In this document: piece after piece, positions 10,720-31,729 of the stretch
Position numbering within the stretch: the stretch's first letter is position 1
How the letters are laid out: every line of letters starts with the position of its first letter
Sequence record: MH494197.1
Reading direction: 5' to 3' (one strand)
Length of the DNA: 64,000 nucleotides
From: Escherichia phage CMSTMSU
Position numbers and translations under genes: made by a program
The notes under the pieces: generated by a model
Database searches by the model: none
What the model was told of the DNA's origin: nothing
The model's input: only the letters and a program-made list of their open reading frames with translations

Positions 10720-11866
10720 ATGTTACCTTTTGTAAGAATGGTTAAGTACGGGAATATTGCACCAGTACCGAAAAAATAAAGAAAGTTATAGCAGGATATG
10801 ATAATTTATATGTACTATATGGTGATGGTTCGCTATATGGTTGTGGAATCAATAACTATCAACAGTTAAATATTGATGGAACTGCTACACAAAATAATTG
10901 GGTACTAATTACCAATGGTGTTAGTAATGCATGGGCTGGTGGATACAATATTTTATATTTGAAAGAAGATAAATTTATAATGCACGGAACTAATGTCTCA
11001 TTAGGTTTAGGAAATACTACAATTCCATTAGGTGGAGTAGATGTAACTTCTTCATTCCCAGATATCTCTAATATTAAAATGATATCCATTGGTTTTGATT
11101 CAATGCACTATGTTAGTGCTGATGGTACAACTGTATATGGAAGAGGTATGAACACAAATGGTTCTGTTGGTTCAGGTAGTACTTACTCACAGAGTACTTT
11201 CACTTCAGTACTGAATAATGGAACTAATCAGGTTATTGATATATTTGGTAACGTTAATAATACAGTGCTTCTAACATCGAATGGTGAGCTTCGAGCATGT
11301 GGGACAAGTGCTTATGGTTCTATAGGAAATGAAACTGGTAAGTGGACATCGTTTGGTTTAAAATTATCTGGCACTAAAATAATGGGTGGTAATGGGTATA
11401 GTACGCTTGCATATACAAATTCGGGAATGTACCACTCAGGGTGGCAGTTAAATGGGGAACTAGGAAATGGTTTAGATACTAACGTACAGGTATATCCATT
11501 TCAATTTAACTCTAAAACGATAGATAGCAAGATAGATAAAATTGCCAAATCATCATCTGGGTCATATGTTAACATGTACTCAACAACAGAAGGAAAGATA
11601 TATACGACAGGTTCGTTTGGTAAAACGGGTCAACTACTGCATTGAATTTGTTCACCAATACATTAACACTTATAAATTACAATCCAGATACCGCCTCGTT
11701 GTATACGTGCACAAACTTCAGTGTTGTGTATGATGGTAATGAAACTATTGCTGTAAGTGGTAGTCCTACATATGTACCGAGGGCGTTGCCGCTAATAGAT
11801 GGACTACAATTCCATTACCCAAGTAATACTATGCCAGTACTTGATGCTGGCTTTTCTTTTGATTAA
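10720..11866 (+). CDS. leader-tagged RCC1-like repeat protein F1 (frame breaks)
   Basis: AAGGAGG then ATG; N-terminus MLPFVRMVKYGN; stop after 19 codons at an A-run (10766-10772), one extra A restores a reading colinear with paralogue 24753..25907; body = track ORFs 10959..11645 and 11642..11866. Confidence 0.7.
11833..11860 (+). terminator. intrinsic terminator between F1 and F2
   Basis: Hairpin GCCAGTA-CTTGA-TGCTGGC followed by TTTTCTTTT; same element recurs after most array genes. Confidence 0.6.
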
Positions 11867-11893
11867 ATATAGTATAATGAATAAGGAGGAATT

Positions 11894-13017
11894 ATGTTAC
11901 CTTTTGTTAGAATGTTTGATTATGGGAATATAATCGAAGTTAATAATATAAAGAAAAGTGTTGTTAGTTACACTCTTGAAATGTTTCTAATGCAAGATGG
12001 CACTGTATATGCACACGGTGAAGATTCAAACTATAATGCGGGTTTAAGTACACAGTTTGTATCGTTAGGAGCAGTTCAACAAATCACAACTGAAGTTGAT
12101 GACTTATGGTTAGGATCGTTTTCCGTTGTTATTAAAGGTGATAAAATATATGGTTCAGGTTCAACATATGCATTCACGAATTCTAATACTTTCCAACAAG
12201 GATATACTGACTGGGCTGTGTATTTCACTGGTATAGATGTTACCCAAATTAAAAAATGTTATGTGGTTATACAGCATTTATATTAATGAAAGACGGAACA
12301 CTTTATGGAAGAGGATGGAATCGAAGTGGTACATTAGGTTTAGGACATAAAAATTATGTTTCAGCGTGGACTGTACTTGACACTAATGTGGATAATATAT
12401 TTGGCGGTTACCTTGGCGATACATTGTTTAAGATTAAAAACGATGGAACTGTATATGGTTCAGGTTCAAATAACAGCTTTCAAGTTAAAGCAACATCGGG
12501 TGATGCAACCACATTTGTTCCGTTGTTTGATGATATATCTTATGATATAAAATGCAGTTTTGTTTCTGGTGTTGGTTTTGTAATGATAACATCTGATAAT
12601 AAAATATATGCAACTGGAACTACTTTTGCTGGTAGTGGTGCACATAGTAAAGTTTTTGATGTTGGTTTTACTATAGGTGATATGAGTAATATATATCATC
12701 CTGATTCGTTGGACTATTCGACTAGTGTTGTATTTTTAATTAATGCAGATACAAACAAACTAATAGCAACTGGGCATACCCATTTACGGAAGTAGTTCAA
12801 GTTCCTTCCATATTTTACAGCATTTCAAGAATTCAATTTTACATCGTTCAATTCGAATACACGATATAGTGGGTCTTTATACTGGAATACATTTTACGAA
12901 GGTAATAATGTATGGATGAATGGATATAATCCTGAAAATACGGGTGGAAAGAATTTCTCATTGTGTTCAATACCGTTAGATACTATTATTACTAAGCAAA
13001 TTGATTTACCTTTTTGA
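11894..13017 (+). CDS. leader-tagged RCC1-like repeat protein F2 (frame breaks)
   Basis: Track ORFs 11894..12286 and 12256..12795 plus tail; N-terminus MLPFVRMFDYGN; C-terminus ...TKQIDLPF matches ...FTKIDLPK of F7. Confidence 0.7.
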
Positions 13018-13087
13018 ATACTATGCCAGTACTCAAGTACTGGCTTTTATTTTATTAAATATAGTATAATGAATAAAGGAGGGAAAT

Positions 13088-14273
13088 ATGTTACCTTTTG
13101 CAAGAATGGTTAAGTACGGGAATAAACAGCCTATTCCTGAACCAGTTGAGTTCACTGATGTTTTACAGCAACATTATACTAATGCTATGTATCTACATAA
13201 GCCCACGAATACACTATACGGTTATGGTGGTAATAACTTGAGCCAATTAGGTCTAGGGAATCAATCGACAGTTTCTACTTTTACAGTACTGGCAACGCAC
13301 TGTGCAGCCTTTTGGTTAGGCGTTCATGGCTCATTGATGATTGACTTGGATAATAGAATATATTTCACAGGGAATACAGTAGCATTCCCCGATTATGGAG
13401 ATGCAACTCCAGTTAATGGTTATTTTAGAACATGGACTGATGTTACTGCCGCATTTGACAAAATAAATGTACACGCTAATTTAATCAAGAGTGTACATAT
13501 AGGTGAAAGTACTAGAATATTACTACACGATGGAAGAGTAGTTGTTTGTGGTAAAATGCAAATGCCGAATGTGGAACAGGTAACCAAAATCCCATACCAG
13601 TACTAACAGTTGTTACTGGTATGGGTGAAGTTCTCAATTGGCGTGTTCATTACAGGGTACGCACTATCTCAAAACAAATAAAGAAGCATGGTTTTGTGGT
13701 AAGGATAACTTTGGTGAAAGTGGTGCTGGGACTAGCTCATACGTTTTACTAATAAGTTAATACGATCCAACGTCGATTATATAAGTGCTACTTATGATGT
13801 TACGGTGGTTCACTGCCGGTAGGGTGTACTGGAGTGGTAGAAACAATTCTGGACAAGCTGGGAATGGTACTACTTCAACCACAAACCAATTAACTACAGT
13901 TCAGAATTCACAGGTTATAGTGAATATTAGTGATGGTTTCCTGTGTCCTAGTAATATGGGTAACTCAACAATTGGTGCACCTATGGCTCAATACCCATCA
14001 TATGTCAGAGTGCAGGCATCAATACATATGGTCAAGAAGGGACGGAAATACAACAGTAATTACTTCGTGGGGGCGTTTTCTTTAAGTGCGATACAGGGTG
14101 GATATGACAATGTTCTTATGGCATCCAAAGACTGGTCCAGAACAATAATTATAACTAAAGATTATAAATTATATGCATGTGGGGGCTTTAACGGTTCAGG
14201 TGGTAACTTACCGGATGGTACTTCCGTAATTAAAACATTAACATTAATGCCAACGCAGTTATGGCAATCATAG
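13088..14273 (+). CDS. leader-tagged RCC1-like repeat protein F3 (frame breaks)
   Basis: Track ORFs 13088..13606 and 13785..14273; N-terminus MLPFARMVKYGN; repeats of type YGxGxNxxGQLG. Confidence 0.7.
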
Positions 14274-14282
14274 GAGAAAATC

Positions 14283-15404
14283 ATGTTACCTTTTGTTAGA
14301 ATGTTTGATTATGGAAATGAAGCACCTGATCCTAGTTCGGGATTTCGAATAATAAGTACAGGAGACGCATTACTATTAATTACTAAGAGTGGTGATTTGT
14401 GGGTGCGTGGTTATAACCGTTATGGCAAGTTAGGTATAGGTAATAACACCACTACCTATGTACTTGATTGGACGAAGGTTAGAAGTGATGTAAAGTTTGC
14501 GTGTGGTAGTGGATTGGTAACAGTTATCTTTACTAAGGGTAATCGCATATTGTACTGTGGTGACAAATGGTTTGAAACGGGTGGTGTTGGTAGTGCACAG
14601 ATTTTCACATGGACAGATGTTACGCACCAATTTGGGGCAGTAGATTTGAGTACAGTAAGGGATATGAAAATGTCTTATTACACGATTGGATTATTGACTA
14701 CTAATAATCAATTATACGCTAAGGGATATGATAATAACCTATCATTTGGTGGGGTTAGTAATAAGGCGACTGCTGTGTTTATTGCGAATAATGTACAAGA
14801 GTTGTATACGAGTTTAGTTAGTACAATCTACGTTGATACAAGTGGTATATTACATCGTTGTGGCATGAGTGATAACGGTTCGTTGGGTAATAATGTTAAT
14901 TTAACTTCGTATCTAAGTTATTCACAGACTGGTATGACGATTAAGGACATTGGAATGATGACTACGAACACTGGGTTATTATATACTGATTCTAGTGCAC
15001 GCACGAGATATTTTATTGCTGGACAGAACTTGAATAAACAGATGGGTAATGCGGCGGCTGCGAGTGCCATTACGAGTACTTACACAGAGCTTTCTGGTAG
15101 TGTTGATAAGTTTTCTTCTTTATGGGCGAATGATGGGATATTGATGACATTTGCTGTGGGTAAGAACACTAATCAGTTATTTTATGCTGGGATGAATACT
15201 TTTCATGCGAGTGGTGGTGTATCTTCATATGCGGATACATATGAGTTAGTCCCGATGGTGTTTAATGACATACAGGAAGTGTTATGTGCACAGCGTTTAT
15301 CGGTGGTACATGATTCTACGAAGTGGTATTACTGTGGTGATGCTAATTCAATGTATGGTTTACCGGACGTAAGTACTTTTACTGAGTTACCGTTGCCCTT
15401 TTAA
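14283..15404 (+). CDS. leader-tagged RCC1-like repeat protein F4 (intact, 373 aa)
   Basis: Uninterrupted track ORF; N-terminus MLPFVRMFDYGN; GGAG upstream; about seven repeats of (D/N)GxhYxxGxNxxGxLG; starts 9 nt after F3 stop with no terminator. Confidence 0.85.
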   Translation: MLPFVRMFDYGNEAPDPSSGFRIISTGDALLLITKSGDLWVRGYNRYGKLGIGNNTTTYVLDWTKVRSDVKFACGSGLVTVIFTKGNRILYCGDKWFETGGVGSAQIFTWTDVTHQFGAVDLSTVRDMKMSYYTIGLLTTNNQLYAKGYDNNLSFGGVSNKATAVFIANNVQELYTSLVSTIYVDTSGILHRCGMSDNGSLGNNVNLTSYLSYSQTGMTIKDIGMMTTNTGLLYTDSSARTRYFIAGQNLNKQMGNAAAASAITSTYTELSGSVDKFSSLWANDGILMTFAVGKNTNQLFYAGMNTFHASGGVSSYADTYELVPMVFNDIQEVLCAQRLSVVHDSTKWYYCGDANSMYGLPDVSTFTELPLPF

Positions 15405-15412
15405 TAATAGGT

Positions 15413-15440
15413 CAGTACTGAAATATGTACTGGTATTTTT
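15413..15440 (+). terminator. intrinsic terminator after F4
   Basis: CAGTAC-TGAAATAT-GTACTG hairpin followed by GTATTTTT. Confidence 0.55.
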
Positions 15441-15476
15441 GTAAATACTATATAATTTAATTACGGAGATTTTATT

Positions 15477-16653
15477 ATGTTACCTTTTGTTAGAATGTTT
15501 GATTATGGGAACGTCGTTGAGCGACCTGTGGGTACACGTTATACCTGTAGTGACTATAGTGCGACTTATAGTTTAATAAAGGATGGTGTGTTATATGTAT
15601 CTGGGATGAATAACTATTATCAGTTAGGTAATAACACTAACGTAACACGTTACAACGAGTGGTTAAAAGTTCCAGAGACTGATAGTGTTAAGTTTTGTAG
15701 TACTGGTTATAGTCAGACAATGTATATTACTAACAATGGGAGGATAATGATAGCTGGTGAAGATCCTACTTCCAGTGCGACGGCGGTAAGTGTTAAGGTA
15801 TGGACTGATATAACTTCTAGATTTAGTGCAGTTGATACAAAGAAGATTGTTTATATTTCAATAGAACGCTTTGGTGTAATGATGATCATGCAAGATGGTT
15901 CAGTATGGGCGTGTGGAGTTGATAATACTGGTTGGAGTGGGCAGGAAGTAAAACTGTTGGTTTCTTTACTTTCAGACAAATATACACCGGAAGTGCAGGA
16001 AGTGCAGTTGCTGGTACTGCTGGTACTGGTACTGCGAGAATTCTGTTAGCTAATGGAACAATCTTGTCCGCTGGTACTAATACATATCATCAATGTAATG
16101 CTAGTACTGATCCGGCTGTTCTAACATTCACTGAATCATTCCACGGGTTGATCCTTCATTGATATATCAAATCAAGATGTGTAATAACAACTGTATTATA
16201 TTTTGAGTGATAAGAGATATTACGGTACTGGCTGGGAAGTTTTGGTGCATTGGGTGATGGTGATATTACGGGTTCGAATAATAAATTCTATGCAGGTACA
16301 TTGTCAGTTGCTCCTAAAACATGCGTGCTTATATGTCGTATCTATGTAGTTCTTCTGGGGATTCTAGTATGTACATAGGCGATGATAATTTCATATACAC
16401 CTGCGGTTATCGTGGGAGGAACTTAATAAATGCCACTACAGATATTGGTACGTTCACGAAATGCATTCAAAGTGCACAAGGATACAAGAATGGACTTATA
16501 TATAGTGGGAATTATTGTGCTGTAGTTTTTGATCCAGATTTGGGTTCAGGAATGTCATATGCGGTTTCATCACCAAAATTGAATGCACCAGCACCACAGG
16601 CGAGTGTTCCAACATTGGGTATGAGTTCGTTACAAGCTATTATTTTACCATAA
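15477..16653 (+). CDS. leader-tagged RCC1-like repeat protein F5 (frame breaks)
   Basis: Track ORFs 15477..16049, 15932..16162, 16321..16653; N-terminus MLPFVRMFDYGN; variant promoter TATATAAT and GGAG. Confidence 0.65.
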
Positions 16654-16736
16654 CATTATACCAGTACTGAAATATGTGCTGGTATTTTTTTAAATACATT
16701 ATAATTATTATATGGAGATTTTAGTTATGTTACCTT

Positions 16737-17851
16737 TTGTAAGAATGTTTGATTATGGGAATACAGTGGCTGCTCCCACTGGTATAAAGGATTTCAAGCA
16801 AATGGAAGCCACTGTATGGCACTAACATATAGTGGTGAGATGTGGGCTTATGGTACAAGTACAAGTGGATCAATGGGAACCGGATTCACGGTGGGTGCTG
16901 CTGATAAGGGTTGGTACAAGTCTAACATTAGTAATGTTAAATCATTCAGTTCTAATATGCAGACTAGCACAGTGGCTTTGACAAATGATGATAGAGTGCT
17001 AGTTTGTGGCTCAACTAGATTTGACAAATTCAGTACTCCAGATATTGCATCATCTAACCTTGATTGGTTGGATGTTACTGATCATATTCCACAGGAAGTT
17101 ATTGATGCTGGGATGAAGCAAGTTATTAACCACGTATATTATGTTGCCATTTTACTGAAAACAATCTATTATATAGTGTGGCATTATCTTTGGGTAATAC
17201 TAGTACTATAATAGATAGAACATGGAGAAGAAATACATTTGGTGATATACAAGTTGAACGTGTTGTTTCGTTGACACAAACCCCAAGTGGTCCTTTGTGT
17301 ATAGTTCAAGATGCAGACGGATACCAGTATGGTATTGGATATAATGGTAATAAGATTATTGATAATACTTCCACTAATTCATATTCTGTATATACCAAAA
17401 TGGGTACACTTCCTTACAATGAATTTGCCATATCGAATAGCGGGAAATTCAGTTCAGCGGTATTATCAGATGGGAGAAGTGTTTATAGTGGTACATTTCC
17501 AAAGTCATTCAATAATAGTTTTGGTTCATTTTGAAAGTTGGTGCGGTATCAGATACTGTGTTTGGTTTAGATGCAAAAATATGCGTGGTCAATATGGTCA
17601 AAATCAATTACCAATTGCGTCGGCTGATAACAATGCAAGTAATGGCGTTGTGAACCTTCGTAATGTTCCAGCGGGAACACAAACGAAAGACATTCGATTT
17701 ATATGCGGAAATGATGTAAAGAACGTTTATATCATATACACAAATGAAGACGGCATTAGCTCATTTTATGGATTGGGACCAAACTTTGATCAAAATTCCT
17801 CAACATATGCACAATTCGTCAAAGTGGATTTGCGGGGCATTATCAAATTAA
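16737..17851 (+). CDS. leader-tagged RCC1-like repeat protein F6 (frame breaks, 3' end approximate)
   Basis: ATG at 16737 after terminator 16661..16690; N-terminus MLPFVRMFDYGN then early stop; body = track ORFs 16816..17211, 17178..17534 and 5' part of 17311..18324. Confidence 0.6.
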
Positions 17852-17861
17852 GGAGAGAAAT

Positions 17862-18960
17862 ATGTTACCTTTTGTTAGATTGTTTGATTATGGGAATATC
17901 ACACGGTCCTAAAAATATAATTAAAGTTGGTGCTTCTACACAGGGTCAATTCTTATTGACAGATTCACATGATTTATATTACATAGGTAGAAATCAAGGT
18001 GGTGAATCTGGAAATGGAAATACCAACACAGTATCCTCATGGATATTAGTAAGTACAGATGTTTCTAATTTTTTCGTGGGTGATCGTACACTTGTTATTA
18101 TTAAAAATGATAATACGATATGGTCATCAGGTCAAACGTACTGGTTCACATCTTCCACAACTACTTCTTACAGTACTGTATTAGTTGATAGAACCAGTTG
18201 GTTTACCAATGCCATACCAGTAAGTGAAATTGCTGATATAGTATGTTCGTATGGTTTAATATTTGTACTTAGCACTAGTTCAGTACTCTATGGTGCAGGG
18301 CTAATGGATATCGTGGTGCTTTAGGTATTGGTTCATCATCAATTTACACATTAACTCAATGTGCTACTAATGTGCGTAAAGTAATGACGAATGCAAATGA
18401 CAGTATGTATATTACATTAGATAATAAGTTATATAGTTCTGGGTGGAATGACCGTGGATTACATGGCACAGGAACAGAACACAAGTTAACATTTGGGGAC
18501 TGCGTAGTTCTGGTGTAATAGATGCAGCTATTGGTGGACATACACTCAATTACTATAATGGTACATCATATTTCACATGTGGTACAACTCCAAACTTTCT
18601 TAGTTCAGATTCAACTACATTCAAAGCAGTTCCTGTAAGTACTTTACCTAATAATTCACCTTTGTTTATGACAAATTCAGAGGCAACAAGCACGGCTACG
18701 CAAATTATATTAACTAGTGCATATCAGAAAGGTATTGGAAACCGTGGTTTGGGATTAAACAATTCTCAAACGGTGCTATCTATAGTGCTGCTAATTTACA
18801 ATTACCTGTAGAAGTTAGTGAGATTAGTGATGTTGCTTTTAGTGACGGATTAACATCATTATTAACCAAAGACGGAATGTATATAGTACTGGATCGTATT
18901 ACGCCATTCCGTGCAAGTGCAGATGTTGCAGTCTTTACTAAAATTGATTTACCAAAATAA
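17862..18960 (+). CDS. leader-tagged RCC1-like repeat protein F7 (frame breaks)
   Basis: AGGAGAGAAAT then ATG; N-terminus MLPFVRLFDYGN then stop; body = 3' part of track ORF 17311..18324 plus downstream frames ending ...FTKIDLPK. Confidence 0.6.
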
Positions 18961-18966
18961 CATAAT

Positions 18967-18993
18967 GCCAGTACTTGATACTGGCTTTTCTTT
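18967..18993 (+). terminator. intrinsic terminator after F7
   Basis: GCCAGTA-CTTGA-TACTGGC hairpin plus TTTTCTTTGG. Confidence 0.6.
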
Positions 18994-19000
18994 GGTTAAA

Positions 19001-19023
19001 TATAGTATAATGAATAAAGGAGG
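19001..19023 (+). promoter_or_regulatory. conserved array promoter/RBS module (-10 TATAAT at 19006-19011, AAGGAGG at 19017-19023)
   Basis: Block TTAAATATAGTATAATGAATAAAGGAGG nearly identical upstream of 12 of the 17 array genes; no convincing -35 hexamer. Confidence 0.5.
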
Positions 19024-19028
19024 GAATT

Positions 19029-22695: not shown

Positions 22696-23884
22696 ATGTT
22701 ACCTTTTGTTAGAATGTTTGATTATGGGAATATCACACCTGAACCTCTTCAAATTAAGAAAATAATACCAACTGATACTGAGGTTGTTGTACTTTATACC
22801 GACGGTCAACTATACGCACGAGGCAGTAATAGTTATGGGAAGTTTGGTAGAGGAAATAATAATGCAGTAAGGTCGTGGACATTAATTAGAGAAAATGTCA
22901 AAGATTGCTGGATGACACAAGGAACTTTGTTAGTTCAAGATAAGGACTTAAATTATTTTTATTGTGGATATGGTAGTCATATTGGTTTAGAAACTAGTAC
23001 TACATCATTTTTAAGTTATAACCAATATATTGAAAATTTGTACACACAAAGTTCAGGTACTTCAATTAAACAGATGTATGCAGGTACTACTTGGTTTACT
23101 TTCTTAATGGATAATAATACAATATGGAGTACTGGTTGGAGTGGGGCTAGACAATTCGCTGATGGTACTGGTAGTACTCAACAAATAACAGATGGATCAT
23201 TTGTAAAAGCTGTCACGCCTAATGTTGATATTGCACGAATACAGTCAACAAATAGCTGTGTAATGTTTTATGATACACAAAATAATTTATATATTGGTGG
23301 TAGTACATCAGGTATAAGTACTACTGATACATGGACTCCATACAATCAATATACTTTATATCAGCCAAGTACAACATATACAAAAACATTACAATATGTT
23401 GTATGTACAATTGGTGCAGTCAGTGCTTTAGTGGAGAATCCAAGTACAGGAGCACGTCAGTTCCTAGTGGGTGGGAACGCCAATAATGGGGCATGGGGTA
23501 ATAACACTACGTCTAGTACAGCACGAGCAGTATTAGGAAATAATAGTACAACCTTACCACCGTACTTTGTATTCAATTCATACTGGATACCCAGCACAAT
23601 CTAGTATACTAGTTACGAGTTCTGGTGTATATGCAACAGGTTTAAATGCGAGTAGTTATGCTGGTTCATTGGGTGTTGGTTCTAATGTTACCATTGGTAA
23701 ATTTACTGCATGTCCATTGCCGTCAGAAATAACATATTCTATGTATGATAAAATAAAAATATATCGAGGGTCGTTACGTACTTTCCTAACTGCTGATATG
23801 AAAAATATATATTCAACCGGAACTTATGATGATGGTGGTCCTAGTACAAATAGATATGTACTGGATACACCTAGACAATTGTAA
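22696..23884 (+). CDS. leader-tagged RCC1-like repeat protein F11 (frame break)
   Basis: Track ORFs 22696..23604 and 23567..23884; N-terminus MLPFVRMFDYGN. Confidence 0.7.
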
Positions 23885-23948
23885 AAAAGCCAGTATCAAG
23901 TACTGGCTTTTCTTTGTTAAATATAGTATAATGAATAAAGGAGGAATT

Positions 23949-24683
23949 ATGTTACCTTTTGCTAGAATGGTTAAGTACGGGAATAAAATTGAATATAAGC
24001 CACATGGTGAACAATTAATCACGACAATAGGAACAACACAATTTACAGTTCCTGCTGGCGTTACCGAAATATCAGTATGTGTTATTTCGCCGGTGGTCAA
24101 CGTGGTGCTGGCGGCGGCTTATCGTGGCGTAATAATATTCCGGTTTCTGGTGGTGAGTACTTAAGTGTTTCTCTTACATCCCAACACTACTACAGCAGTT
24201 GAAAACGGTTTATATCGTGGAACTGAAAAACTATGTGTTAGCTTCACTGGTGCATATACGGTTGGTGGACTAGGTGGAAAAGCTGCTAACGCTATTAATG
24301 ATGGTGGTGGTAATGGTGGCAACACTGGTTTAAGTGGTGGTGCAGTCATTGGTGGTGGTGCTGGTGGCTACACTGGTAAAGGTGGTAACGGAAATGCAAT
24401 CACTGGTGAAAATGGTGCTGGGGGCGGCGGTGGTGGTGGTGCATTCTATAATACCTCGTTCATTGGTACGGGTGGTGGTACTGGTATCATTGTTCAAGGT
24501 GCTAATGGTATTGGTGGTAGCTACGATGGTTCATATAATGGTGGTGCTGGTAGTGGTGGTGCTGGTAATAGGTATGGTGGTGGTGGTAGTATATGGGATA
24601 ATTCTTCTTATACGGCGGCTGGTGGTGGTGCTGTGCGAATAATATGGGGACGTGGGAGATATTATCCTAATAATTCAGTCTAA
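23949..24683 (+). CDS. leader-tagged glycine-rich domain protein F12 (frame break)
   Basis: Track ORF 23826..24164 trimmed to MLPFARMVKYGN Met, plus track ORF 24165..24683 (GGGNGGNTGLSGG..., GAGGGGGGGAF); alternative frame across the break gives FAGGQRGAGGGLSWRN. Confidence 0.65.
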
Positions 24684-24752
24684 AATATAGGCCAGTACTT
24701 GATACTGGCTTTTCTTTGAATTAAATATAGTATAATGAATAAAGGAGGAAAT

Positions 24753-25907
24753 ATGTTACCTTTTGTTAGAATGTTTGATTACGGGAATATTGCACCTGAA
24801 GCTCCAAAGATAAAGAAAGTACTGTGCGGTCTTGATAATTTGTACGTCCTCTATGACGATGGCTCACTTTATGGTTGTGGGGTTAATTCGTATTTTCAGT
24901 TAAACGTTACAAATACAGCAACAAGAAATACTTGGATATTAATTTCAGAAGGTGTTACTGATGCATGGGCTGGGGCGTACAATATTCTTTATATCAAGGG
25001 TGAAGAATTCATAATGCATGGAGTTACCACACAATTAGGCACAGGAAATACTATGATTCCGTTGGGTGGTTTGAATGTTACTTCTTCATTTCCACATATA
25101 TCTAATATTAAAATGATATCAATCGGTGCAGATACAATGCACTACGTTGATGCTAGTGGTTCGATTGTTTATGGTAGAGGCATGAATGGTAACTATTCAC
25201 TCGGTGGTGGGTATTCCACGGCTCAGAGTACTTTTGTTTCAGTTATTAATACCGGAGCTAATACAGTCCTTGATATATTGGGTACACAGAATAACACATT
25301 AATATTAACATCAAATGGTGAACTTCTCGGTTGTGGGAGTAGTGAGTATGGCTCACTTGGCGTAAGTCAAGGACAGTATACTACACTAGTAAGCAGGTTA
25401 ACCAGTGTTAAACTGTTTGGTGGTAACAGTACTGGTACTCTTGCTTATTCAGCCAGCAATATATACAACGCAGGTTGGCAGTATGTTGGTCAACTTGGTA
25501 ACGGTATTACAACGAACACACTAGTATATCCATTTGCATTTAACTCCACTACTATTGATAGTAACATACATAAAATATCAAAATCAAGTACATCTTCACG
25601 TGTTAATATGTACGCAACAACCGAAGGAAAGATATATAGTACTGGTGAATTTGGTAGAAATGGTTCTGGTGGTAGTTTGAGTAGATTCACCAATACACTA
25701 ACTTTAGATAATTACAACCCAGAAAAATCAGCATTATACACATGTGCACATTTTAGTATAGTATTTGATGGTAATAATCAAATTTATGCTTGTGGTTCTT
25801 TTTGTATGTGCGTTCTATTACCACGAACTCATGGTCTGCAATTACAATGCCGAAATGATACTATAAAACTATGCCAGTACTTGATGCTGGCATTTCTTTT
25901 GTATTAA
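24753..25907 (+). CDS. leader-tagged RCC1-like repeat protein F13 (intact, ~384 aa)
   Basis: Track ORF 24735..25907 trimmed to MLPFVRMFDYGN Met; colinear paralogue of F1. Confidence 0.8.
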   Translation: MLPFVRMFDYGNIAPEAPKIKKVLCGLDNLYVLYDDGSLYGCGVNSYFQLNVTNTATRNTWILISEGVTDAWAGAYNILYIKGEEFIMHGVTTQLGTGNTMIPLGGLNVTSSFPHISNIKMISIGADTMHYVDASGSIVYGRGMNGNYSLGGGYSTAQSTFVSVINTGANTVLDILGTQNNTLILTSNGELLGCGSSEYGSLGVSQGQYTTLVSRLTSVKLFGGNSTGTLAYSASNIYNAGWQYVGQLGNGITTNTLVYPFAFNSTTIDSNIHKISKSSTSSRVNMYATTEGKIYSTGEFGRNGSGGSLSRFTNTLTLDNYNPEKSALYTCAHFSIVFDGNNQIYACGSFCMCVLLPRTHGLQLQCRNDTIKLCQYLMLAFLLY

Positions 25908-25936
25908 ATATAGTATAATGAATAAAGGAGGAAAAT

Positions 25937-27070
25937 ATGTTACCTTTTGCAAGAATGGTTAAGTACGGAAATAAAAGACCATCTAATAATATCAAAAGAT
26001 TTCATGTACAACCAATAACAGTGTTTTGGTGCTCACCGAAAGTGGAGATTTGTATGGTTTTGGATTCAATTCAGGTGGTGAACTTGGCACTGGTGCAAAA
26101 CTAGTGTTACTTCAGTTATTCAAATTGACACTGGAGTTGATGATGTATGGGGTGGTAGTCTATGTGCAATGTACAGAAAAGGCGATGAATTCTTTGGCAG
26201 CGGGACGGTTCTTATTATGGTTCAAGTGCTGTTAACTCAACCACATTTGTAAATGTAACACACATATTCCAAGATATAGATATTCTTAATATTAAGAAAA
26301 TTAAAATGACAACAGGTTTGTTTATATTAATGCAAAACGGCAACTTATATGGATGTGGGGTAAACACCAATTGTCAATTTGGTACTGGTGAGGCAGTGAA
26401 TTTTCGTTATCCTATAGCTACATTAACACAAACGGATGTTGTTGATTTTGATATTTTAGGAAACTCTAGTATAATATTAAAGACCGATGGGTACATGTAC
26501 AGTGCGGGTGATAATGGTCGTGGACAACTTGGTAGTTCTACTGCAACCACACTTCTGGTATATACACAAATTAGTAAATTTCCAAACGTAACCAATTTGG
26601 ATCTGTTCGGACACTCACAAGTTACTTCATTATTCAAAGATAGTGATGGTAAAACGTGGTTGAGTGGTAATAGTTATGGTATTGATTACCCAGTAGTAGC
26701 TACAACATTATTCAGTAAAGAAGCACCAGTACCTGAAGGTACATTTCGTTTTATCAACACAAGGGCAGGGTCAAATACACCAATAATATGTACACCCACT
26801 GGGTATTATGTTGCTGGTACTAACCCTTATGGTGCATATGGTATAGGTACGAATGTAACTCTGACAACATTCACAAGAATGGATTCTATGGATAGATACA
26901 TATCTGATTATAATAATGTTCCTGTTTTCGATGGATGTTTCTATGGGACATATTTTGCAGTTGGGGAACGTCTGTTTGGTGCAGGTAATGGTAATACTGG
27001 TAATGTTCCGGATATACTGGATCACAGCGTAACTATGTGGAAATTAATTATAAAAATAATTAAACCTTAA
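25937..27070 (+). CDS. leader-tagged RCC1-like repeat protein F14 (frame breaks)
   Basis: ATG at 25937 behind AAGGAGG; N-terminus MLPFARMVKYGN; body = track ORFs 26026..26235 and 26306..27070. Confidence 0.65.
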
Positions 27071-27138
27071 TACTATGCCAGTACTTGATACTGGCTTTTC
27101 TTTGGTTAAATATAGTATAAAGAATAAAGGAGGGAATT

Positions 27139-28308
27139 ATGTTACCTTTTGCTAGAATGGTTAAGTACGGGAATACTATACCCAAACCCGCTGGTGTGAA
27201 GAAAATTAGTACTTCCATTAATCACGTTGGGATGTTATTCGATAATGGAAATTTATATCTACGTGGGGTGGTGGTGAGTATAAGTTAGGAAATGACAGTA
27301 CTGGATTCGTACAGAATGGTTGGGTTAAGTGTCCATATAGCGTTGCTGATGTTTGGTGCTTCACTTACGCGACAATTATACTTACTACAAGTGGTGAATT
27401 ATACTTAGCTGGACAATTGGGTTATGTTGGTGTAGTTGCAGCGAGCGTACGGATGGACTAATATTACATCTAATTTATCCTCAATACCTGCACTTAGTAC
27501 TATACAAAACATAGCTTATACTGAGACTACAATTTACAATGGTGCTATATTAATTTTGTTAAGCAACGGGGACTTATATGGTATAGGTCGTAATGGTGGT
27601 GGTGTATTAGGCGTTTCTGGAATCCAATCAACTGCACTTAAGATTGACACAGGTGTTACTTTAATTGCTGGCACAGACCGTTCAGCGGCGTTACATTATG
27701 TGAAAAATGGTCAATACTACAGATGTGGGAATAATTCTCGCTACAACCTAGGAACAAGCTCTTCTGTTTTATCTACATTTACGGTAAGTACAGATATCAC
27801 AGGAACCGTACTGGGATTGCATGTACTACAAATGCGACTTCAGTACTGACATCATATAATGGTACTATTAGAGTGTATAGTGCTGGGACGAATACCGATT
27901 ATACGTTAGGTATTGGTTATGGAGATACCAGTATAATAATGAGTCCATTTAGTGCTACACCTCCAATTTATGGTATTGTACCAGATGCGGCATCACTGAA
28001 TAATTCTTGTATTAATTCTAATATGATTGCGATGACACAGGGTGGTAAATTGTATACATGTGGTAATGGTGTTGCTCTTGGTAGAGAAATCACTGCATCG
28101 ACACCTAGAACGGCGTACTATCCAGTACTATTTGAGGATTCAAATACTGCACTTGATGTTAATGCTTTTGCAGTGCAGGGGGTTCCGGTGTGTTATACGC
28201 ATTAGTGGGGGCAAATGAGGTTTACTGGTGTGGTAGTGGTTCTATGTTCCGGAACAGAGTGCAGGTACACAACAAGTTAAAATGAAGAAAATGATTTTAC
28301 CAGAATAG
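27139..28308 (+). CDS. leader-tagged RCC1-like repeat protein F15 (frame breaks)
   Basis: ATG at 27139; N-terminus MLPFARMVKYGN; body = track ORFs 27436..27849 and 27873..28205; upstream -10 is TATAAA. Confidence 0.6.
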
Positions 28309-28317
28309 GAGGAAAAT

Positions 28318-29449
28318 ATGTTACCTTTTGCAAGAATGGTTAAGTACGGGAATATAAAAGTAAAGAGTACTATCCAAAAAGTTATCCTTGGTGGTGGTGG
28401 TCAATGTGTGGTAACATTACTCAGTGATGGTAGAGTGTATGGACGTGGATACAATACAACATATGGGTTGGGTACTGGTACAACAACATTCGTAAGTGAT
28501 TGGGTATTAATGGGCGATAATATTGTTGATATCCATTCAAATGGTGTTACTGGCACATTCCTTATTACCAAAGAAAATAGAATTTTGTATTCTGGTTTTG
28601 CGACACCAATCAATGGCACAACATCACATTATACACGTTTCACTGATTTAACATCAACTGTATTTGCTGCGGTGGATGTTAGTAATATTAAAACAATTAC
28701 GGGAAATGGTAATGTTACAATGGTTCTTTTGAATGATGGTTCACTTTATGGGAGTGCAAATACAGGGTTATAGGTAATGGTAGTAACGTTGCATTATCAA
28801 CACAAACATATGTGACTAATGATGTGCGTGATGTGAAAACATATCCATCAATGAACACTATAACAAAAATAATAATCAAATATTGGCTAGTGGTATTTTA
28901 TACCAAGGCGTGAACGGTACAAATTCATCAATAAACACGTCTTCATATACATTACTGTACACATTACCGAGTTCTGATTGTTTTCAATTTGCATTTGATA
29001 CATATACATTTGGATATGTTGACCCTAGTACTAACACTTCTTATATAAGAGGTATACCAATAAATGGTTCATTAGGTAATGGCGTTACTAATAATACAGC
29101 AGTTACAACATGGGTTACTAAAGTTTGGAATACACCAATTGATAGTTCTATACCTAATAAATCATATACAACTAACCATGTCTCCTTGTTCAATGATGGA
29201 AACTTATGGACAACTGGTGCATCTAGTGTCGGCTATTCCAATGGTACAAATAGCACAACAGCTAATACATGGACCAGTTCATCTAATTTACCATTCAACA
29301 CTAATAACATAACAGACTATGCTTTTGGTGGTAGTATTACTGTGGTGGTAATCGACTATAGGACTATGTACATACTAGCTAACAACGCCATTGCTGGTAC
29401 TGCTACGACAACTTATAAATTTGAGCCATATAATTCTCCACCAGTTTAA
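28318..29449 (+). CDS. leader-tagged RCC1-like repeat protein F16 (frame break)
   Basis: Track ORFs 28318..28773 and 28883..29449; N-terminus MLPFARMVKYGN; starts 10 nt after F15 stop behind GGAGG. Confidence 0.65.
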
Positions 29450-29479
29450 TATAATGCCAGTACTATGTACTGGCTTTCT

Positions 29480-30128
29480 TTACATATTATATAATGTGAA
29501 TGCTGTCACTTTACCAGTTGTTGTTAGTTCATTATAAAGATACTCCAATATTCTCGCACACTCTAAGTATATCTCGATATCATCATGAATAAGTGAGTAC
29601 TGAAATAGCTGTTCTTCAGATAATTTGTATTGACTTCCTTTTAATGAATTGAGAATATCTTTCACATCATCAAGTACTGGGTAAAGTACGAAATCTTCAT
29701 CATATTTTGAAGCAATAAATTCAAATCCACCACCATCAGTACTAGATATACCAATCAGTACTTTATCAACCAAGTTAATGTTTATATAACGGTTGTGATT
29801 TGGGTGAATTGAAATCTCAAACATACGAGTACTGTTACAATCAACATCAATATACAAATATACATCGTTGAATTTATAAGTTAAGCAACCGTACTCAAGA
29901 AAATCAGAGCAAATAATTGATGAGTTTTTCTCGTCTCTGCGTAATGCATCTTGATATTCTTTTCACGCATAAGTAATTCGAACTTTGCACTAAACTTGCC
30001 ACCAGTAAGATAATTAGTATTAGGACGTTTGTAACTTGCAACTGGTCGGTGGGATGATGTAAAGTATTTTTTGTGAATCGTTTCTGTTTAGTGAAATATT
30101 CTTGATAGAACTTACTTCTTTTATTCAT
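29480..30128 (-). CDS. hypothetical protein encoded antisense within the array (frame break)
   Basis: Track ORFs 29904..30128 and 29480..29857 joined by a shifted frame (GGKFSAKFELLMREKNIKMHY...); sits between F16 and F17. Confidence 0.4.
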
Positions 30129-30205
30129 GAGTACCTCAATTAAATCGCTGTAAAATTGTACATTATAAAATGATTAAATAAAGTATAACACAAGGAGATT
30201 TTATC

Positions 30206-31324
30206 ATGTTACCTTTCGTATTGTTATTTGATTATGGGAACGAAAAACAAGAAAGTTCTTATGATGTTAGTGTATATGGAAACAATAACTACATTTTAAA
30301 TAAACAAACTGGAAACCTTTTTGCATCCGGTGCTGCGCATTCATGGGTGATAACACAGTTAAGTATTATATTACCCAAATAGAATCAAATGTTCATAGCT
30401 GTGAGATAGGTTTCCTATCATCATGGATAATTAAGAAGGACAAAACTGTTTTCATTTTAGGAAACAAAAGCAGTATTGGATTAACTGATTCGACAACATC
30501 ATGGTTCGAAATTACAAACTTATTTTCTGCTGTTCCTGAAATATGGGACAACCTATTTGAATGTAAAGTTCAATTGGGATATAACTGCATACGTGTTATG
30601 ACACCACTAGGATCAATATATGCGATTGGTACAAACACTTATGGTGCATTGGGTACTGGTACTACATCCTCATCCACTTCGTTCGTTAAAAGTGGTGCTG
30701 TGGATGCTGTACGCATGGAATCAACAGAACGTTCAGTGTTCTATCAAAACAGTTCTGGACAATGGTTTGGATGTGGTGATAACACATATGGTATACTAGG
30801 TCTAGGAACTACCGCTAGTCGTGTAAACTCATACACCGCACCAGTATGGACTAATGCAGAAGCTGTTAGCTTCTCTAACCGTGGATCATATACAGCCTCA
30901 ATGGTACTCTATACTCATGTGGTGACAAAGTTAATGGTCAGCTAGGGATGGATATACACAAAGCATAGACGCTGCCGAGCACACCATACACCATAGGAAC
31001 CGCATTCCAAATTGGTAAGGCAATAACATCAGCTACACAAGCATCAGCCAACGTATTCATTGGTAAAGATAATAAGTTCTATGGTACTGGTAGTATTGCT
31101 GCTGGTATAAATGGTAGTACTAGTGCTGCATTAAGTAAAGTTACTGCGTTATCAGCATCACTACCACCTGACATTACATACAATGATATTATATCATTTA
31201 ATACAGGGACCGTAACTTTTATTCAAGCAAAGGACAACTATATTATGTTGGTAGAAGAACTTACATAGATAATAGTTCAGACGTTACCACACAGTTCAGT
31301 GTAATTGGTGGATTAGATAATTAA
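30206..31324 (+). CDS. leader-tagged RCC1-like repeat protein F17, divergent leader (frame breaks)
   Basis: ATG behind AAGGAG; N-terminus MLPFVLLFDYGN; body = track ORF 30343..30945 plus downstream frames ending ...VIGGLDN. Confidence 0.55.
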
Positions 31325-31729
31325 AATTAATCCAGTACTATTATAGTACTGGATTTTTATTATAACATACGTTTTTACGAATAGTATTGTGGATATTTTT
31401 AAGTAGTTCACACCTTTACACAACCCATAAAATACACCAGCACATACACCAAATGCAGGTATCATACATGCAAACATCGTTATCAATTCCCACATCTCCA
31501 TACCATCTTGATTCGGTCCAAGGTCAAAGATAACAACCAAAACCAAACCTGTGATACTTAGCATATAATATGCCATGAAGATAATAAAAGAAACAATACC
31601 AACATCAGAGCGAACTGAATTTAGCATATTATATACTGGGGTTACACAGAAGTAATACAATAACCAAATCAAAGAACCTAAACTAAACACAATAATAGTA
31701 ATGATTGAAAATATTTCACGATAACTCAT
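31313..31729 (-). CDS. small membrane protein (WYFK-motif family)
   Basis: Track ORF with predicted TM helices; start of minus-strand block. Confidence 0.5.
   Translation of the reverse strand: MSYREIFSIITIIVFSLGSLIWLLYYFCVTPVYNMLNSVRSDVGIVSFIIFMAYYMLSITGLVLVVIFDLGPNQDGMEMWELITMFACMIPAFGVCAGVFYGLCKGVNYLKISTILFVKTYVIIKIQYYNSTGLILII
31322..31360. terminator. bidirectional terminator closing the array
   Basis: Perfect 13-bp inverted repeat AATCCAGTACTAT-TA-TAGTACTGGATT flanked by A/T runs. Confidence 0.6.

What the first reader, a model, noticed from the sequence alone, without database searches (positions are those of the whole stretch)
10720..31360. Seventeen-gene cassette array of leader-tagged RCC1-like propeller proteins
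About 20 kb holds 17 same-strand paralogues of ~370-390 aa. Nearly all begin with the same dodecapeptide, and most sit behind the same hairpin terminator, TATAAT box and AAGGAGG site. Bodies are highly diverged but built from repeats of type (D/N)GxhYxxGxNxxGxLG, about seven per protein, which is the signature I associate with RCC1-like seven-bladed beta-propellers. I do not recognise this arrangement from well-studied phages. Such a block is a candidate host-range, host-interaction or anti-defence repertoire.
Basis: partly seen in the sequence, partly recalled or inferred. Interest (0 to 1): 0.9.

Follow-up and report, generated by a model that had tools for sequence, protein, structure and literature searches.

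The report
Tagged virion-protein cassette array, jumbo coliphage
This is the known multi-copy "RCC1-like" gene array of PBECO4/121Q-type giant E. coli phages, whose products are found in virions. The interesting part is a shared 12-residue N-terminal tag that stays on the mature proteins and also sits on unrelated protein folds, which suggests a common docking handle for interchangeable binding modules.

Summary
Seventeen same-strand units (10720-31325) all start with MLPF(V/A)RM(FD/VK)YGN. Twelve sit behind a hairpin terminator, a promoter-like box and AAGGAGG.

Corrections:
- The broken ORFs are sequencing artefacts. The window has no CCWGG site in 64 kb and compressed homopolymers. Relatives carry intact genes.
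- The window is an Asteriusvirus (PBECO4/121Q/phAPEC6-like). The array is annotated in dozens of genomes and was noted in 2017 and 2020 papers. Members were detected in virions by mass spectrometry.

Apparently undescribed:
- The tag is conserved at protein level across three genera, on RCC1, Kelch, LamG and Gly-rich bodies.
- It is predicted to be disordered.
- Residues 7-12 are present in peptides from mature CBB virions, so it is not a cleaved T4-type targeting propeptide.
- Mosaic breakpoints between related phages fall exactly in the cassette plus leader, as with T4 PeSL elements.

Best reading: late-expressed, interchangeable virion-displayed binding modules docked through a common tag. 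This is inferred, confidence about 0.5.

The parts
10720..11825 (+). Unit 1: leader MLPFVRMVKYGN + RCC1-like body. Frameshifted in the window; end approximate.
   Evidence: The body is 100% identical to EC.P1 and 95% to Turkey3, where the genes are intact.
11894..13010 (+). Unit 2: leader MLPFVRMFDYGN + RCC1-like body. Frameshifted; end approximate. No close orthologue in Turkey3, EC.P1 or phAPEC6.
13088..14273 (+). Unit 3: leader MLPFARMVKYGN + RCC1-like body. Frameshifted.
   Evidence: 99% identical to the intact 397-aa Turkey3 gene.
14283..15404 (+). Unit 4 (F4): intact 373-aa RCC1-like protein. Close-coupled to unit 3, with no hairpin or box.
   Evidence: PF25390, E 1.5e-15
15477..16653 (+). 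Unit 5: RCC1-like body, frameshifted. Variant cassette (TAAATACTATATAAT...GGAG).
16727..17852 (+). Unit 6: RCC1-like body, frameshifted. Variant cassette.
17862..18958 (+). Unit 7: leader MLPFVRLFDYGN, RCC1-like body, frameshifted. Close-coupled to unit 6; end approximate.
19029..20198 (+). Unit 8 (F8): intact 389-aa RCC1-like seven-bladed propeller. Orthologue of phAPEC6 gp010, which was detected in virions.
20266..21415 (+). Unit 9: RCC1-like body, frameshifted; end approximate.
21489..22595 (+). Unit 10: RCC1-like body, frameshifted. 84% orthologue of phAPEC6 gp005, which was detected in virions.
22696..23884 (+). Unit 11: RCC1-like body, frameshifted.
23949..24683 (+). Unit 12: the same leader (MLPFARMVKYGN) on a non-RCC1 body. 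The body is a glycine-rich domain (Gly_rich_2 / phrog_4474) and is frameshifted in the window.
24753..25858 (+). Unit 13 (F13): RCC1-like body. The 3' end is frameshifted, so the 24735..25907 ORF has a false C-terminus and a false MNKGGN start. 97% orthologue of phAPEC6 gp009, which was detected in virions.
25937..27070 (+). Unit 14: RCC1-like body, frameshifted.
27139..28306 (+). Unit 15: RCC1-like body, frameshifted. Its stop overlaps the SD of unit 16.
28318..29449 (+). Unit 16: RCC1-like body, frameshifted. Close-coupled to unit 15.
29456..29474 (.). Bidirectional hairpin terminator between unit 16 and the convergent minus-strand gene.
   Evidence: scored on both strands
29480..30128 (-). 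Minus-strand gene embedded in the array (216 aa in Turkey3). No family match. Conserved at this position in relatives.
30206..31325 (+). Unit 17: degenerate leader MLPFVLLFDYGN, RCC1-like body, frameshifted. Has its own divergent TAAATA box.
   Evidence: (Turkey3 orthologue: PF00415 50 bits)
18967..19028 (+). Representative regulatory cassette: hairpin GCCAGTACTTGATACTGGC, T-run, TAAATA, TATAAT, AAAGGAGG, then 5-6 nt to the ATG. Near-identical copies lie upstream of units 2, 3 and 8-15. A variant form lies upstream of units 5 and 6.

Best explanation
The block is the hyperplastic accessory-virion-protein locus of an Asteriusvirus (PBECO4/121Q/phAPEC6-type jumbo coliphage).

- **What each cassette encodes.** A roughly 40-kDa ligand-binding module: 16 RCC1-like seven-bladed propellers and one glycine-rich fibre-type domain. 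Each module is preceded by a flexible 12-residue tag, MLPFxRMxxYGN, and a short Pro-rich linker.
- **Expression (inferred).** The genes are transcribed late from a T4-late-like TAAATA element.
- **Virion association.** The proteins are incorporated at low copy into virions. This was shown by MS for orthologues and paralogues.
- **Role of the tag (inferred).** The tag stays on the mature protein, and I infer that it is the common handle docking every module to one virion site. The particle would then display a mixed repertoire of binding domains for host-surface or environmental ligands.
- **How the repertoire is reshuffled.** Homologous recombination in the roughly 100-bp repeat (terminator, promoter, SD, leader) that bounds every cassette exchanges units between phages, much as PeSL elements do in T4-type phages.
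- **The broken ORFs.** These are Nanopore-type basecalling errors, not biology.
For: **Identity of the locus**
- The window is 95-98% identical to Asteriusvirus genomes in which all units are intact genes of 370-450 aa.

**Folds**
- Pfam RCC1/RCC1_2/RLD hits.
- AF2 pTM 0.85 with about 28 strands.
- Foldseek to UVR8, HERC2, RPGR and RCC1 at E 1e-21 to 1e-14, TM about 0.75.

**Virion association**
- phAPEC6 MS detected gp003, 005, 006, 007, 009, 010, 549 and 551, that is 8 of 11 annotated members (hypergeometric p about 2e-6). These include orthologues of units 8, 10 and 13.
- CBB MS detected 7 of 9 tag-bearing proteins (p about 2e-6).
- GAP32_001 was also identified by MS.

**Tag under protein-level constraint**
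- Across 73 distinct leader DNAs from Asteriusvirus, Mimasvirus, Eneladusvirus and two uncultivated genomes, M1 and P3 are invariant and L2 and F4 nearly so (72 and 71 of 73).
- Where residues P3, Y10 and G11 are conserved, their codons still vary synonymously (CCT 41 / CCA 29; TAC 39 / TAT 20; GGG 32 / GGA 23).

**Tag independent of fold**
- The same tag sits on RCC1, Kelch, LamG/ConA-like and Gly-rich bodies.
- It is predicted as low-confidence coil in both AF2 models.

**Tag retained in the mature protein**
- The CBB virion peptide report contains LFEYANVIIPPNYK, YANVIVEYATK and LLQYGNK, which cover tag residues 7-12 of three proteins.

**A second lineage shows the same logic**
- rV5-like phages and PCH45 carry a different tag (MxEMLLxG) on the same LamG and Gly-rich bodies. 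One of these, GAP31_108, is annotated as a virion structural protein.

**Late promoter**
- TAAATA is kept in all cassette variants at -25 to -27.
- (T)ATAAATA lies upstream of the phAPEC6 MCP, scaffold, protease and baseplate genes.

**Shuffling**
- Unit-by-unit presence and absence, and unit order, differ among phages with 97% identical backbones.
- High-identity blocks start at the hairpin or just upstream of a leader and end about 36 nt into the next leader.

**Genes are functional**
- dN/dS between orthologues is 0.06-0.7, with a median of about 0.2.

**Sequencing artefact**
- About 95% of indels against two relatives are deletions in the window, in homopolymers or at CCWGG, and they occur in the flanks as well.
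- The window has 0 CCWGG in 64 kb against 0.6-1.2 per kb in relatives.
Against: - No experiment or structure shows what the tag binds, or whether the proteins are outside or inside the particle.
- The MS evidence rests on few peptides (1-5 per protein in phAPEC6). Those preparations also contained obvious non-structural proteins (SSB, RecA-like, topoisomerase), so co-purification is possible.
- Residues 1-6 of the tag were never observed as a peptide.
- The external-display argument rests on the Gly-rich and LamG bodies. Nothing here shows that RCC1-type bodies bind host surfaces.
- The late-promoter assignment is by motif resemblance only.
- Retention of the tag was shown in CBB, not in an Asteriusvirus.
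Confidence: 0.5

Rival explanations
1. Internal cargo. The tag is an uncleaved capsid-targeting signal, functionally like the T4 internal-protein CTS. It would load the propellers into the prohead or inner body, and they would be ejected with the DNA to act on host defence or physiology.
For: - A conserved short N-terminal leader on divergent bodies in a hyperplastic locus is the T4 IP pattern (own knowledge).
- These phages have T4-like head morphogenesis genes, including a gp21-like prohead core scaffold/protease.
- phAPEC6 has an inner body of unknown composition.
- Low-copy virion detection fits this reading.
Against: - Tag residues 7-12 are present in mature CBB virion proteins.
- No conserved (L/I)xE site follows the tag. 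Position 9 is K, D, N, Q or E.
- The Gly-rich body matches external tail-fibre and tail-tip proteins. LamG bodies match the C-terminal ends of very long virion proteins.
- Non-phage RCC1 relatives carry signal peptides or surface-protein domains.
Confidence: 0.2
2. DNA-condensation or inner-body proteins. This is the reading behind the 'DNA condensation protein' annotation and the suggestion in the phAPEC6 paper.
For: - Name-based analogy to eukaryotic RCC1 binding chromatin.
- phAPEC6 has an inner body whose proteins are unidentified.
Against: - The RCC1 fold is a generic propeller, and the best structural matches include UVR8, HERC2 and RPGR.
- The same tag sits on lectin-like and fibre-type bodies.
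- Rapid cassette turnover between 97%-identical phages is not expected of a core packaging component.
- GAP32 has only one RCC1 copy, and the CBB paper found no homologue of it in the CBB genome.
Confidence: 0.05
3. Abundant late non-structural proteins that merely co-purify with virions. The tag would serve another purpose, such as recognition by a chaperone, protease or adaptor, or control of localisation or turnover.
For: - Low peptide counts.
- Other non-structural proteins were present in the same MS lists.
- CBB encodes ClpP and ClpS-like proteins that read N-termini.
Against: - The same class was detected independently in three phages from different laboratories, with strong enrichment.
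- CBB peptide coverage reached 25-50% for several members.
Confidence: 0.12
4. The 'leader' is only a DNA-level by-product. It would be the 3' end of a recombination or translation-initiation cassette, homogenised by gene conversion, with no role as a peptide.
For: - Within the window, the leader and 5' UTR are nearly identical at DNA level while the bodies are saturated.
- Recombination breakpoints include the leader.
Against: - Across genera the amino acids are kept while codons vary.
- In CBB most tagged genes lack the upstream cassette yet keep the tag.
- A different tag with the same logic exists in rV5-like phages.
Confidence: 0.05

Closest known systems
Multi-copy RCC1-like ('regulator of chromosome condensation' / 'DNA condensation protein') genes of Rak2-like jumbo phages: phAPEC6 gp549-gp010, 121Q_234-248, PBECO4, GAP32_001
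   Same: This is the orthologous locus with the same synteny, the same leader and the same cassettes. Individual units are 84-100% identical at nucleotide level. Members were detected in virions by MS.
   Different: The window carries its own combination and order of cassettes. Unit 2 has no close orthologue in the three relatives compared. None of the papers I read (the CBB, phAPEC6, fEgEco12, Sharanji and Erwinia Eneladusvirus papers) describes the N-terminal tag, the cassette structure or the non-RCC1 members.
PeSL (promoter-early stem-loop) mobile regulatory cassettes of T4-type phages (Arbiol 2010, PMC2839356; Comeau 2014, PMC4122927)
   Same: Both are composite stem-loop terminator + promoter + SD repeats flanking variable genes in a hyperplastic region. 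In both, mosaic junctions between close relatives fall inside the repeat.
   Different: There is no sigma-70 -35/-10 pair. The conserved element looks like a late-type TAAATA. The repeat extends 36 nt into the coding region. The cargo is one functional class of virion proteins rather than unrelated ORFans. Mini-circles were not tested.
T4 internal proteins (IPI/II/III) with the capsid-targeting sequence
   Same: A short conserved N-terminal leader on divergent bodies, encoded in a variable locus of a phage with T4-like head assembly.
   Different: The T4 CTS is removed by the gp21 protease at (L/I)xE. Here tag residues 7-12 persist in virion proteins, and no conserved cleavage motif follows the tag. 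The bodies are 25-45 kDa binding folds rather than small basic proteins.
Modular receptor-binding proteins and adhesins with a lineage-specific N-terminal anchor and exchangeable distal domain (for example T-even gp38 adhesins, PMC3157838; branched tailspikes of CBA120/G7C-type phages, from own knowledge)
   Same: The N-terminus is conserved within a lineage and C-terminal binding domains are swapped horizontally. A glycine-rich body is related to tail-fibre proteins. The same bodies carry another tag in another lineage.
   Different: The anchor here is only about 12 residues of predicted disordered peptide, not a folded domain. Up to 17 paralogues share it. The docking site is unknown and no host-binding data exist.
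Eukaryotic RCC1 / UVR8 / HERC RLD propellers
   Same: Seven-bladed RCC1-type fold and repeat signature.
   Different: About 15% identity. There is no evidence for Ran-GEF or chromatin functions. The 'chromosome condensation' label on the phage genes is an annotation carry-over.

Membership tests
RCC1-like repeat beta-propeller (Pfam PF00415 / PF13540 / PF25390) | RCC1 repeat profile matches | tested here: met
   PF00415 scores 35-50 bits against a cut-off of 21.7, and PF13540 29-36 bits against 22, for several members. F8 is marginal on the repeats (21.3 against 21.7). PF25390 gives E 1e-12 to 1e-23 for most members scanned (1.6e-7 for one) but stays below its 150-bit cut-off. phrog_4219 gives E 4e-63.
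RCC1-like repeat beta-propeller (Pfam PF00415 / PF13540 / PF25390) | Seven-bladed propeller fold | tested here: met
   AF2 pTM 0.85 with about 28 strands. Foldseek to UVR8, HERC2, RPGR and RCC1 at E down to 2e-21, TM about 0.75.
RCC1-like repeat beta-propeller (Pfam PF00415 / PF13540 / PF25390) | All 17 units belong | tested here: not met
   Sixteen units match the family profile across frames. Unit 12 matches only the Gly-rich profile.
Asteriusvirus RCC1-like virion-protein array | Orthology and synteny with the array in deposited Asteriusvirus genomes | tested here: met
Asteriusvirus RCC1-like virion-protein array | Products present in purified virions | not testable with these tools
   This rests on the literature only. 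phAPEC6 MS detected 8 members, including orthologues of units 8, 10 and 13. GAP32_001 and 7 of 9 CBB tag-bearing proteins were also detected.
PeSL regulatory cassettes (T4-type phages) | Stem-loop terminator adjacent to promoter and SD, repeated in a hyperplastic region | tested here: met
PeSL regulatory cassettes (T4-type phages) | Strong sigma-70-type early promoter (-35 and -10) | tested here: not met
   The consensus scan calls a sigma-70-type -35/-10 pair at only one cassette (upstream of unit 9, weak -35 CTGGCA), and sites overall are not enriched (79 against 101.7 expected). The conserved TAAATA resembles late promoters.
PeSL regulatory cassettes (T4-type phages) | Recombination between cassettes produces indels and replacements between close relatives | tested here: met
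   Homology blocks begin at the hairpin or just upstream of a leader and end about 36 nt into the next leader. Presence/absence is mosaic and order is changed. The mechanism itself (mini-circles) was not tested.
T4-type capsid-targeting-sequence internal proteins | Short conserved N-terminal leader on divergent bodies | tested here: met
T4-type capsid-targeting-sequence internal proteins | Leader removed by the prohead protease at (L/I)xE | tested here: not met
   Peptides covering tag residues 7-12 are present in mature CBB virions. No conserved Glu follows the tag. Cleavage after residue 6 or earlier cannot be excluded.
T4-type capsid-targeting-sequence internal proteins | Located inside the capsid and ejected | not testable with these tools
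   -
Modular virion adhesins with a conserved N-terminal anchor | Anchor conserved within a lineage, distal domains exchanged between lineages | tested here: met
   The MLPF tag is restricted to Rak2-like genomes. The same LamG and Gly-rich bodies carry MxEMLLxG in rV5-like phages and PCH45.
Modular virion adhesins with a conserved N-terminal anchor | Distal domains related to known fibre or tail-tip proteins | tested here: inconclusive
Modular virion adhesins with a conserved N-terminal anchor | Physical attachment through the anchor, and host binding | not testable with these tools
   -

The most novel reading that the evidence does not exclude
A 12-residue disordered N-terminal peptide (MLPFxRMxxYGN) is a universal plug. 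Through it, Rak2-like jumbo phages would load any of a shuffled library of binding modules (RCC1 and Kelch propellers, ConA-like lectins, glycine-rich fibre heads; 17 in this genome) onto one acceptor site on the particle. That site could be the unexplained 'hairy' capsid and tail appendages of phAPEC6 and CBB. An analogous but different plug (MxEMLLxG) would serve rV5-like phages and PCH45. This would be a natural, peptide-tag-based virion display system.
Probability: 0.35. Interest if true: 0.75.

Novelty: new member of a known kind. Interest (0 to 1): 0.5.

Why it matters
The array is the largest paralogue family in these 350-kb phages and varies between near-identical isolates. That makes it a prime candidate for differences in host range or environmental adhesion among therapeutic Asteriusvirus candidates.

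If the tag is a docking handle, three things follow:
- It gives a direct route to identify what builds the unexplained whiskers and capsid fibres.
- It offers a minimal peptide for displaying foreign domains on a jumbo-phage virion.
- It corrects a widely propagated and probably wrong annotation ('DNA/chromosome condensation protein').

The artefact diagnosis also matters in practice. Any gene call on this assembly is unreliable until it is polished.

Tried and rejected
- **PDB sequence searches.** Searches with F8, the Gly-rich protein, its profile and a LamG homologue found nothing.
- **Literature search for the tag.** A search for 'MLPF' with 'phage' returned only unrelated papers. None of the papers I read (the CBB, phAPEC6, fEgEco12, Sharanji and Erwinia Eneladusvirus papers) mentions an N-terminal motif.
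- **Sigma-70 promoter reading.** Rejected. A -35/-10 pair was called at only one cassette and sites are not enriched.
- **T4-type cleaved CTS.** Rejected on the CBB peptide evidence and the lack of a conserved Glu.
- **Pseudogene or phase-variation reading of the broken ORFs.** Rejected. Deletions are equally frequent in the flanks, sit in homopolymers and at Dcm sites, and the window has no CCWGG at all. Orthologues are under purifying selection.
- **Velcro-strand reading of the tag.** The idea was that the tag is a structural part of the propeller. Rejected, because it is low-confidence coil in both models and is present on non-propeller folds.
- **Minus-strand gene inside the array.** No family match.
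- **IMG/VR scan for the leader DNA pattern.** Found only the known isolates plus two uncultivated genomes of 355 kb and 371 kb.
- **phAPEC6 supplements.** Not held, so no peptide-level data for an Asteriusvirus.

Full report
**1. What the window is.**
Megablast places the array and its flanks in Asteriusvirus genomes, the PBECO4/121Q/phAPEC6-type E. coli jumbo phages of 348-384 kb. Identity is 95-98% and no record is identical. In the closest relatives the same locus holds 14-17 intact genes of roughly 300-450 aa (Turkey3, EC.P1). They are annotated 'regulator of chromosome condensation', 'HERC1' or 'DNA condensation protein'.

**2. Checking the observation.**
- A fuzzy DNA search finds 17 leader copies, all on the + strand and all inside 10720-30241. 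None occurs elsewhere in the window.
- Two leader alleles dominate, MLPFVRMFDYGN and MLPFARMVKYGN. Units 7 and 17 are slightly degenerate.
- Twelve units are preceded by a GCCAGTACT-loop-AGTACTGGC hairpin plus a T-run. The terminator scan found 21 sites against 7.9 +/- 2.8 in shuffles.
- The 27-mer TAAATATAGTATAATGAATAAAGGAGG occurs 10 times against 0 expected, only in the array.
- Units 4, 7 and 16 are close-coupled to the preceding gene.
- In a 28-sequence alignment of RCC1-type members, the bodies are 18-37% identical while L2, P3, F4, R6, Y10, G11 and N12 are at least 90% conserved.

The described pattern is real and far beyond chance.

**3. The broken ORFs are an artefact.**
- Only two units (F4, F8) are intact in the window.
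- Against two independent relatives, about 95% of indels are deletions in the window. Most are 1 bp in homopolymers of at least 4, or 1-3 bp at CCAGG/CCTGG. They are just as frequent in the flanking non-array genes.
- The window has no CCWGG site in 64 kb, whereas relatives have 0.6-1.2 per kb. Runs of at least 6 are four-fold depleted.
- This is the signature of an unpolished Nanopore consensus of Dcm-methylated DNA.
- Profile searches on three-frame translations show that every unit still covers essentially the full family profile once frames are joined.
The MNKGGN extension on some ORF calls is an in-frame ATG inside the SD cassette.

**4. What the proteins are.**
- Pfam gives RCC1, RCC1_2 and RCC1-like-domain matches.
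- AF2 on F8 with the family alignment gives pTM 0.85 and about 28 strands. Residues 1-19 are coil, and residues 1-10 have pLDDT about 50.
- Foldseek against the PDB returns UVR8, HERC2 RLD, RPGR RLD and RCC1 at E 2e-21 to 1e-14, TM about 0.75.
- Sixteen units are of this type.
- Unit 12 carries the same leader on a different body, a glycine-rich domain (weak Pfam Gly_rich_2; phrog_4474, E 7e-66).
- AF2 models the unit-12 body at pLDDT 92 with a disordered leader.
- Turkey3 additionally has two leader-tagged Kelch propellers.

**5. The leader is a protein-level tag that goes beyond this array.**
- tblastn with the leader finds 443 places in 56 phage records. All but one are jumbo genomes of 310-384 kb, from Escherichia, Salmonella, Klebsiella, Cronobacter, Erwinia, Serratia, Pectobacterium and Xanthomonas phages. 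RaK2 and K64-1 were not among them at this sensitivity.
- A degenerate DNA scan of IMG/VR finds only 121Q, BF, GAP32, CBB and two uncultivated genomes of 355 kb and 371 kb.
- In CBB, nine genes in and next to the syntenic locus begin MLPFx(R/I)hxxY(G/A)N. Their bodies are Kelch, Laminin_G_3/ConA-like or unassigned.
- In Serratia phage BF, RCC1 and Gly-rich bodies carry the variant MLPFPIISNT.
- Across 73 distinct leader DNAs, M1 and P3 are invariant and L2 and F4 nearly so (72 and 71 of 73). Where P3, Y10 and G11 are conserved, their codons still vary synonymously. The constraint is therefore on the peptide.

**6. Virion association comes from the literature.**
- phAPEC6 virion MS detected gp003, 005, 006, 007, 009, 010, 549 and 551 (PMC7247149). 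All are array members.
- Detected members include orthologues of window units 8, 10 and 13, and a 74%-identical relative of unit 15.
- Eight of 11 annotated members among 62 detected proteins out of 551 gives p about 2e-6.
- CBB MS detected 55 proteins, including 7 of the 9 tagged ones (CBB_536, 537, 548, 549, 551, 552, 553; PMC5259590; p about 2e-6).
- The same paper notes that GAP32_001 was MS-identified and that homologues are multi-copy in 121Q and PBECO4. The array as such is therefore already described.
- The phAPEC6 authors speculated about a role in the inner body or DNA condensation, based on the RCC1 name.

**7. The tag is retained.**
- The CBB peptide report (supplement 6) lists three relevant peptides:
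  - LFEYANVIIPPNYK (CBB_537, residues 7-20)
  - YANVIVEYATK (CBB_548, residues 10-20)
  - LLQYGNK (CBB_553, residues 7-13)
- At least residues 7-12 of the tag are thus present in mature virion proteins.
- No conserved Glu or cleavage motif follows the tag.
- Together these argue against a T4-CTS-type cleaved propeptide.
- The MLPFxR hexapeptide itself was not reported, so the state of residues 1-6 is unknown.

**8. A second lineage with the same logic.**
- Homologues of the Gly-rich body outside Rak2-like phages begin M(L/I/F)E(L/M)(L/M). Examples are PVP-SE1 gp19 and contigs of about 150 kb.
- In a CR3-like contig, the Gly-rich protein starts MLEMLTVG. A LamG protein with the same 'LDIDF..IGST' body motif as the Rak2-like phrog_6011 proteins starts MNEMLMLG.
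- GAP31 has MEEMLLTGG (GAP31_108, annotated virion structural protein), MQEMLLGGL and MFEAMLTAGK. PCH45 has MLESMLAGK.
- Lineage-specific tags on horizontally shared bodies are what one expects of docking handles matched to a lineage-specific acceptor. This step is inference.

**9. Regulation.**
- The consensus scan calls a sigma-70 -35/-10 pair at only one cassette (upstream of unit 9, weak -35 CTGGCA), and sites overall are not enriched.
- TATAAT ends 17-19 nt before the ATG. That would put the transcription start on top of the SD.
- Every cassette variant keeps TAAATA 25-27 nt upstream of the ATG.
- In phAPEC6, the MCP, scaffold, protease, gp228/229/231/232/238/242, baseplate wedge and gp245 genes all have (T)ATAAATA upstream. 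A gp55-like late sigma factor is encoded nearby.
- The CBB authors found the same T4-late-like motif before structural genes.
- I therefore read the cassette as terminator + late promoter + SD. This is by resemblance only.

**10. Evolution of the array.**
- Unit by unit, each window cassette is 95-100% identical to a gene in some relatives and absent from others. Order also differs: unit 12 sits after its Turkey3 neighbours, units 13-14.
- High-identity blocks against Turkey3 and EC.P1 start at the hairpin or just upstream of a leader and end about 36 nt into the next leader. The repeat made of cassette plus leader is thus the crossover zone.
- This works like the PeSL elements of T4-type phages (PMC2839356, PMC4122927). 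It fails the PeSL definition on the early sigma-70 promoter.
- Orthologue pairs have dN/dS 0.06-0.7, median about 0.2. Cassettes are maintained by purifying selection, and diversity comes from old divergence plus shuffling.

**11. Verdict.**
- **Shown:** the array, the tag, the propeller fold, the odd Gly-rich member, the sequencing artefact and the recombination boundaries.
- **From the literature:** virion association, and tag retention in CBB.
- **Inferred:** the tag is a docking handle, the modules are displayed externally and bind ligands, and expression is late.
- **External versus internal.** External display is favoured over internal cargo by the fibre and tail-tip relatives of the Gly-rich body, the LamG matches to C-termini of very long virion proteins, the surface-protein contexts of non-phage RCC1 relatives and the uncleaved tag. 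It is not proven.
- **Novelty.** The locus is a new member of a known and already annotated kind. The tag system looks undescribed and is readily testable.

Noticed in passing
window 1-64000: The whole window lacks CCWGG (0 sites against an expected 40-70) and has four-fold fewer homopolymers of at least 6 than relatives. Nearly all indels against relatives are deletions in the window. This looks like an unpolished Nanopore-type assembly of Dcm-methylated DNA, so gene calls anywhere in the window are unreliable.
   Followed up: yes
window ~8645-10617, minus strand (Turkey3 L001 1718-3706): A second tandem paralogue array sits immediately upstream. It has ten proteins of about 60-75 aa, 15-55% identical, many ending in a Y(T/R)EVLKLI(S/A)(I/M) motif. 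No family match.
   Followed up: partly
window ~31360-33790, minus strand (Turkey3 L001 24148-26587): A third tandem array sits immediately downstream. It has seven multi-pass membrane proteins of about 104-123 aa, 14-24% identical. Their CBB counterparts are annotated as membrane proteins.
   Followed up: partly
window 29456-30128: A single minus-strand gene (216 aa in relatives, no family match) is embedded between units 16 and 17. It is separated from unit 16 by a hairpin that scores as a terminator on both strands.
   Followed up: partly
L019 459-1109 and 8001-8693; L020 9001, 10207, 14936; L021 5998: rV5-like phages (CR3-like, GAP31, PVP-SE1) and the 213-kb Serratia phage PCH45 carry a different short N-terminal motif, M-x-E-(M/A/S)-(M/L)-L-x-G. 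It sits on LamG-like, Gly-rich and other small proteins, at least one of which is annotated as a virion structural protein.
   Followed up: partly
L003 (phAPEC6 MK817115) 2434-3543, 6063-7253, 7325-8059: Three full-length leader-tagged ORFs in the deposited phAPEC6 record are unannotated or represented only by a fragment (gp004). The published count of 'eleven RCC1-like proteins' and the MS search database were probably incomplete.
   Followed up: partly
window 20248, 24735 (and other cassettes): The cassette ...TATAATGAATAAAGGAGGAAAT ATG contains an in-frame ATG. ORF callers therefore add a spurious MNKGGN extension in front of the real start.
   Followed up: yes
window ~33860-34620 (Turkey3 L001 26655-27401, minus strand): The gene annotated 'transcriptional regulator FleQ' downstream of the membrane array gives only weak AAA/STAND-type NTPase matches.
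   Followed up: no
L005 (CBB NC_041878) 17177-22905: In CBB the tagged-gene block lies directly at the inner boundary of the 22-kb terminal repeat. In GAP32 and BF it lies at a record end. The locus may sit next to the physical genome terminus.
   Followed up: no
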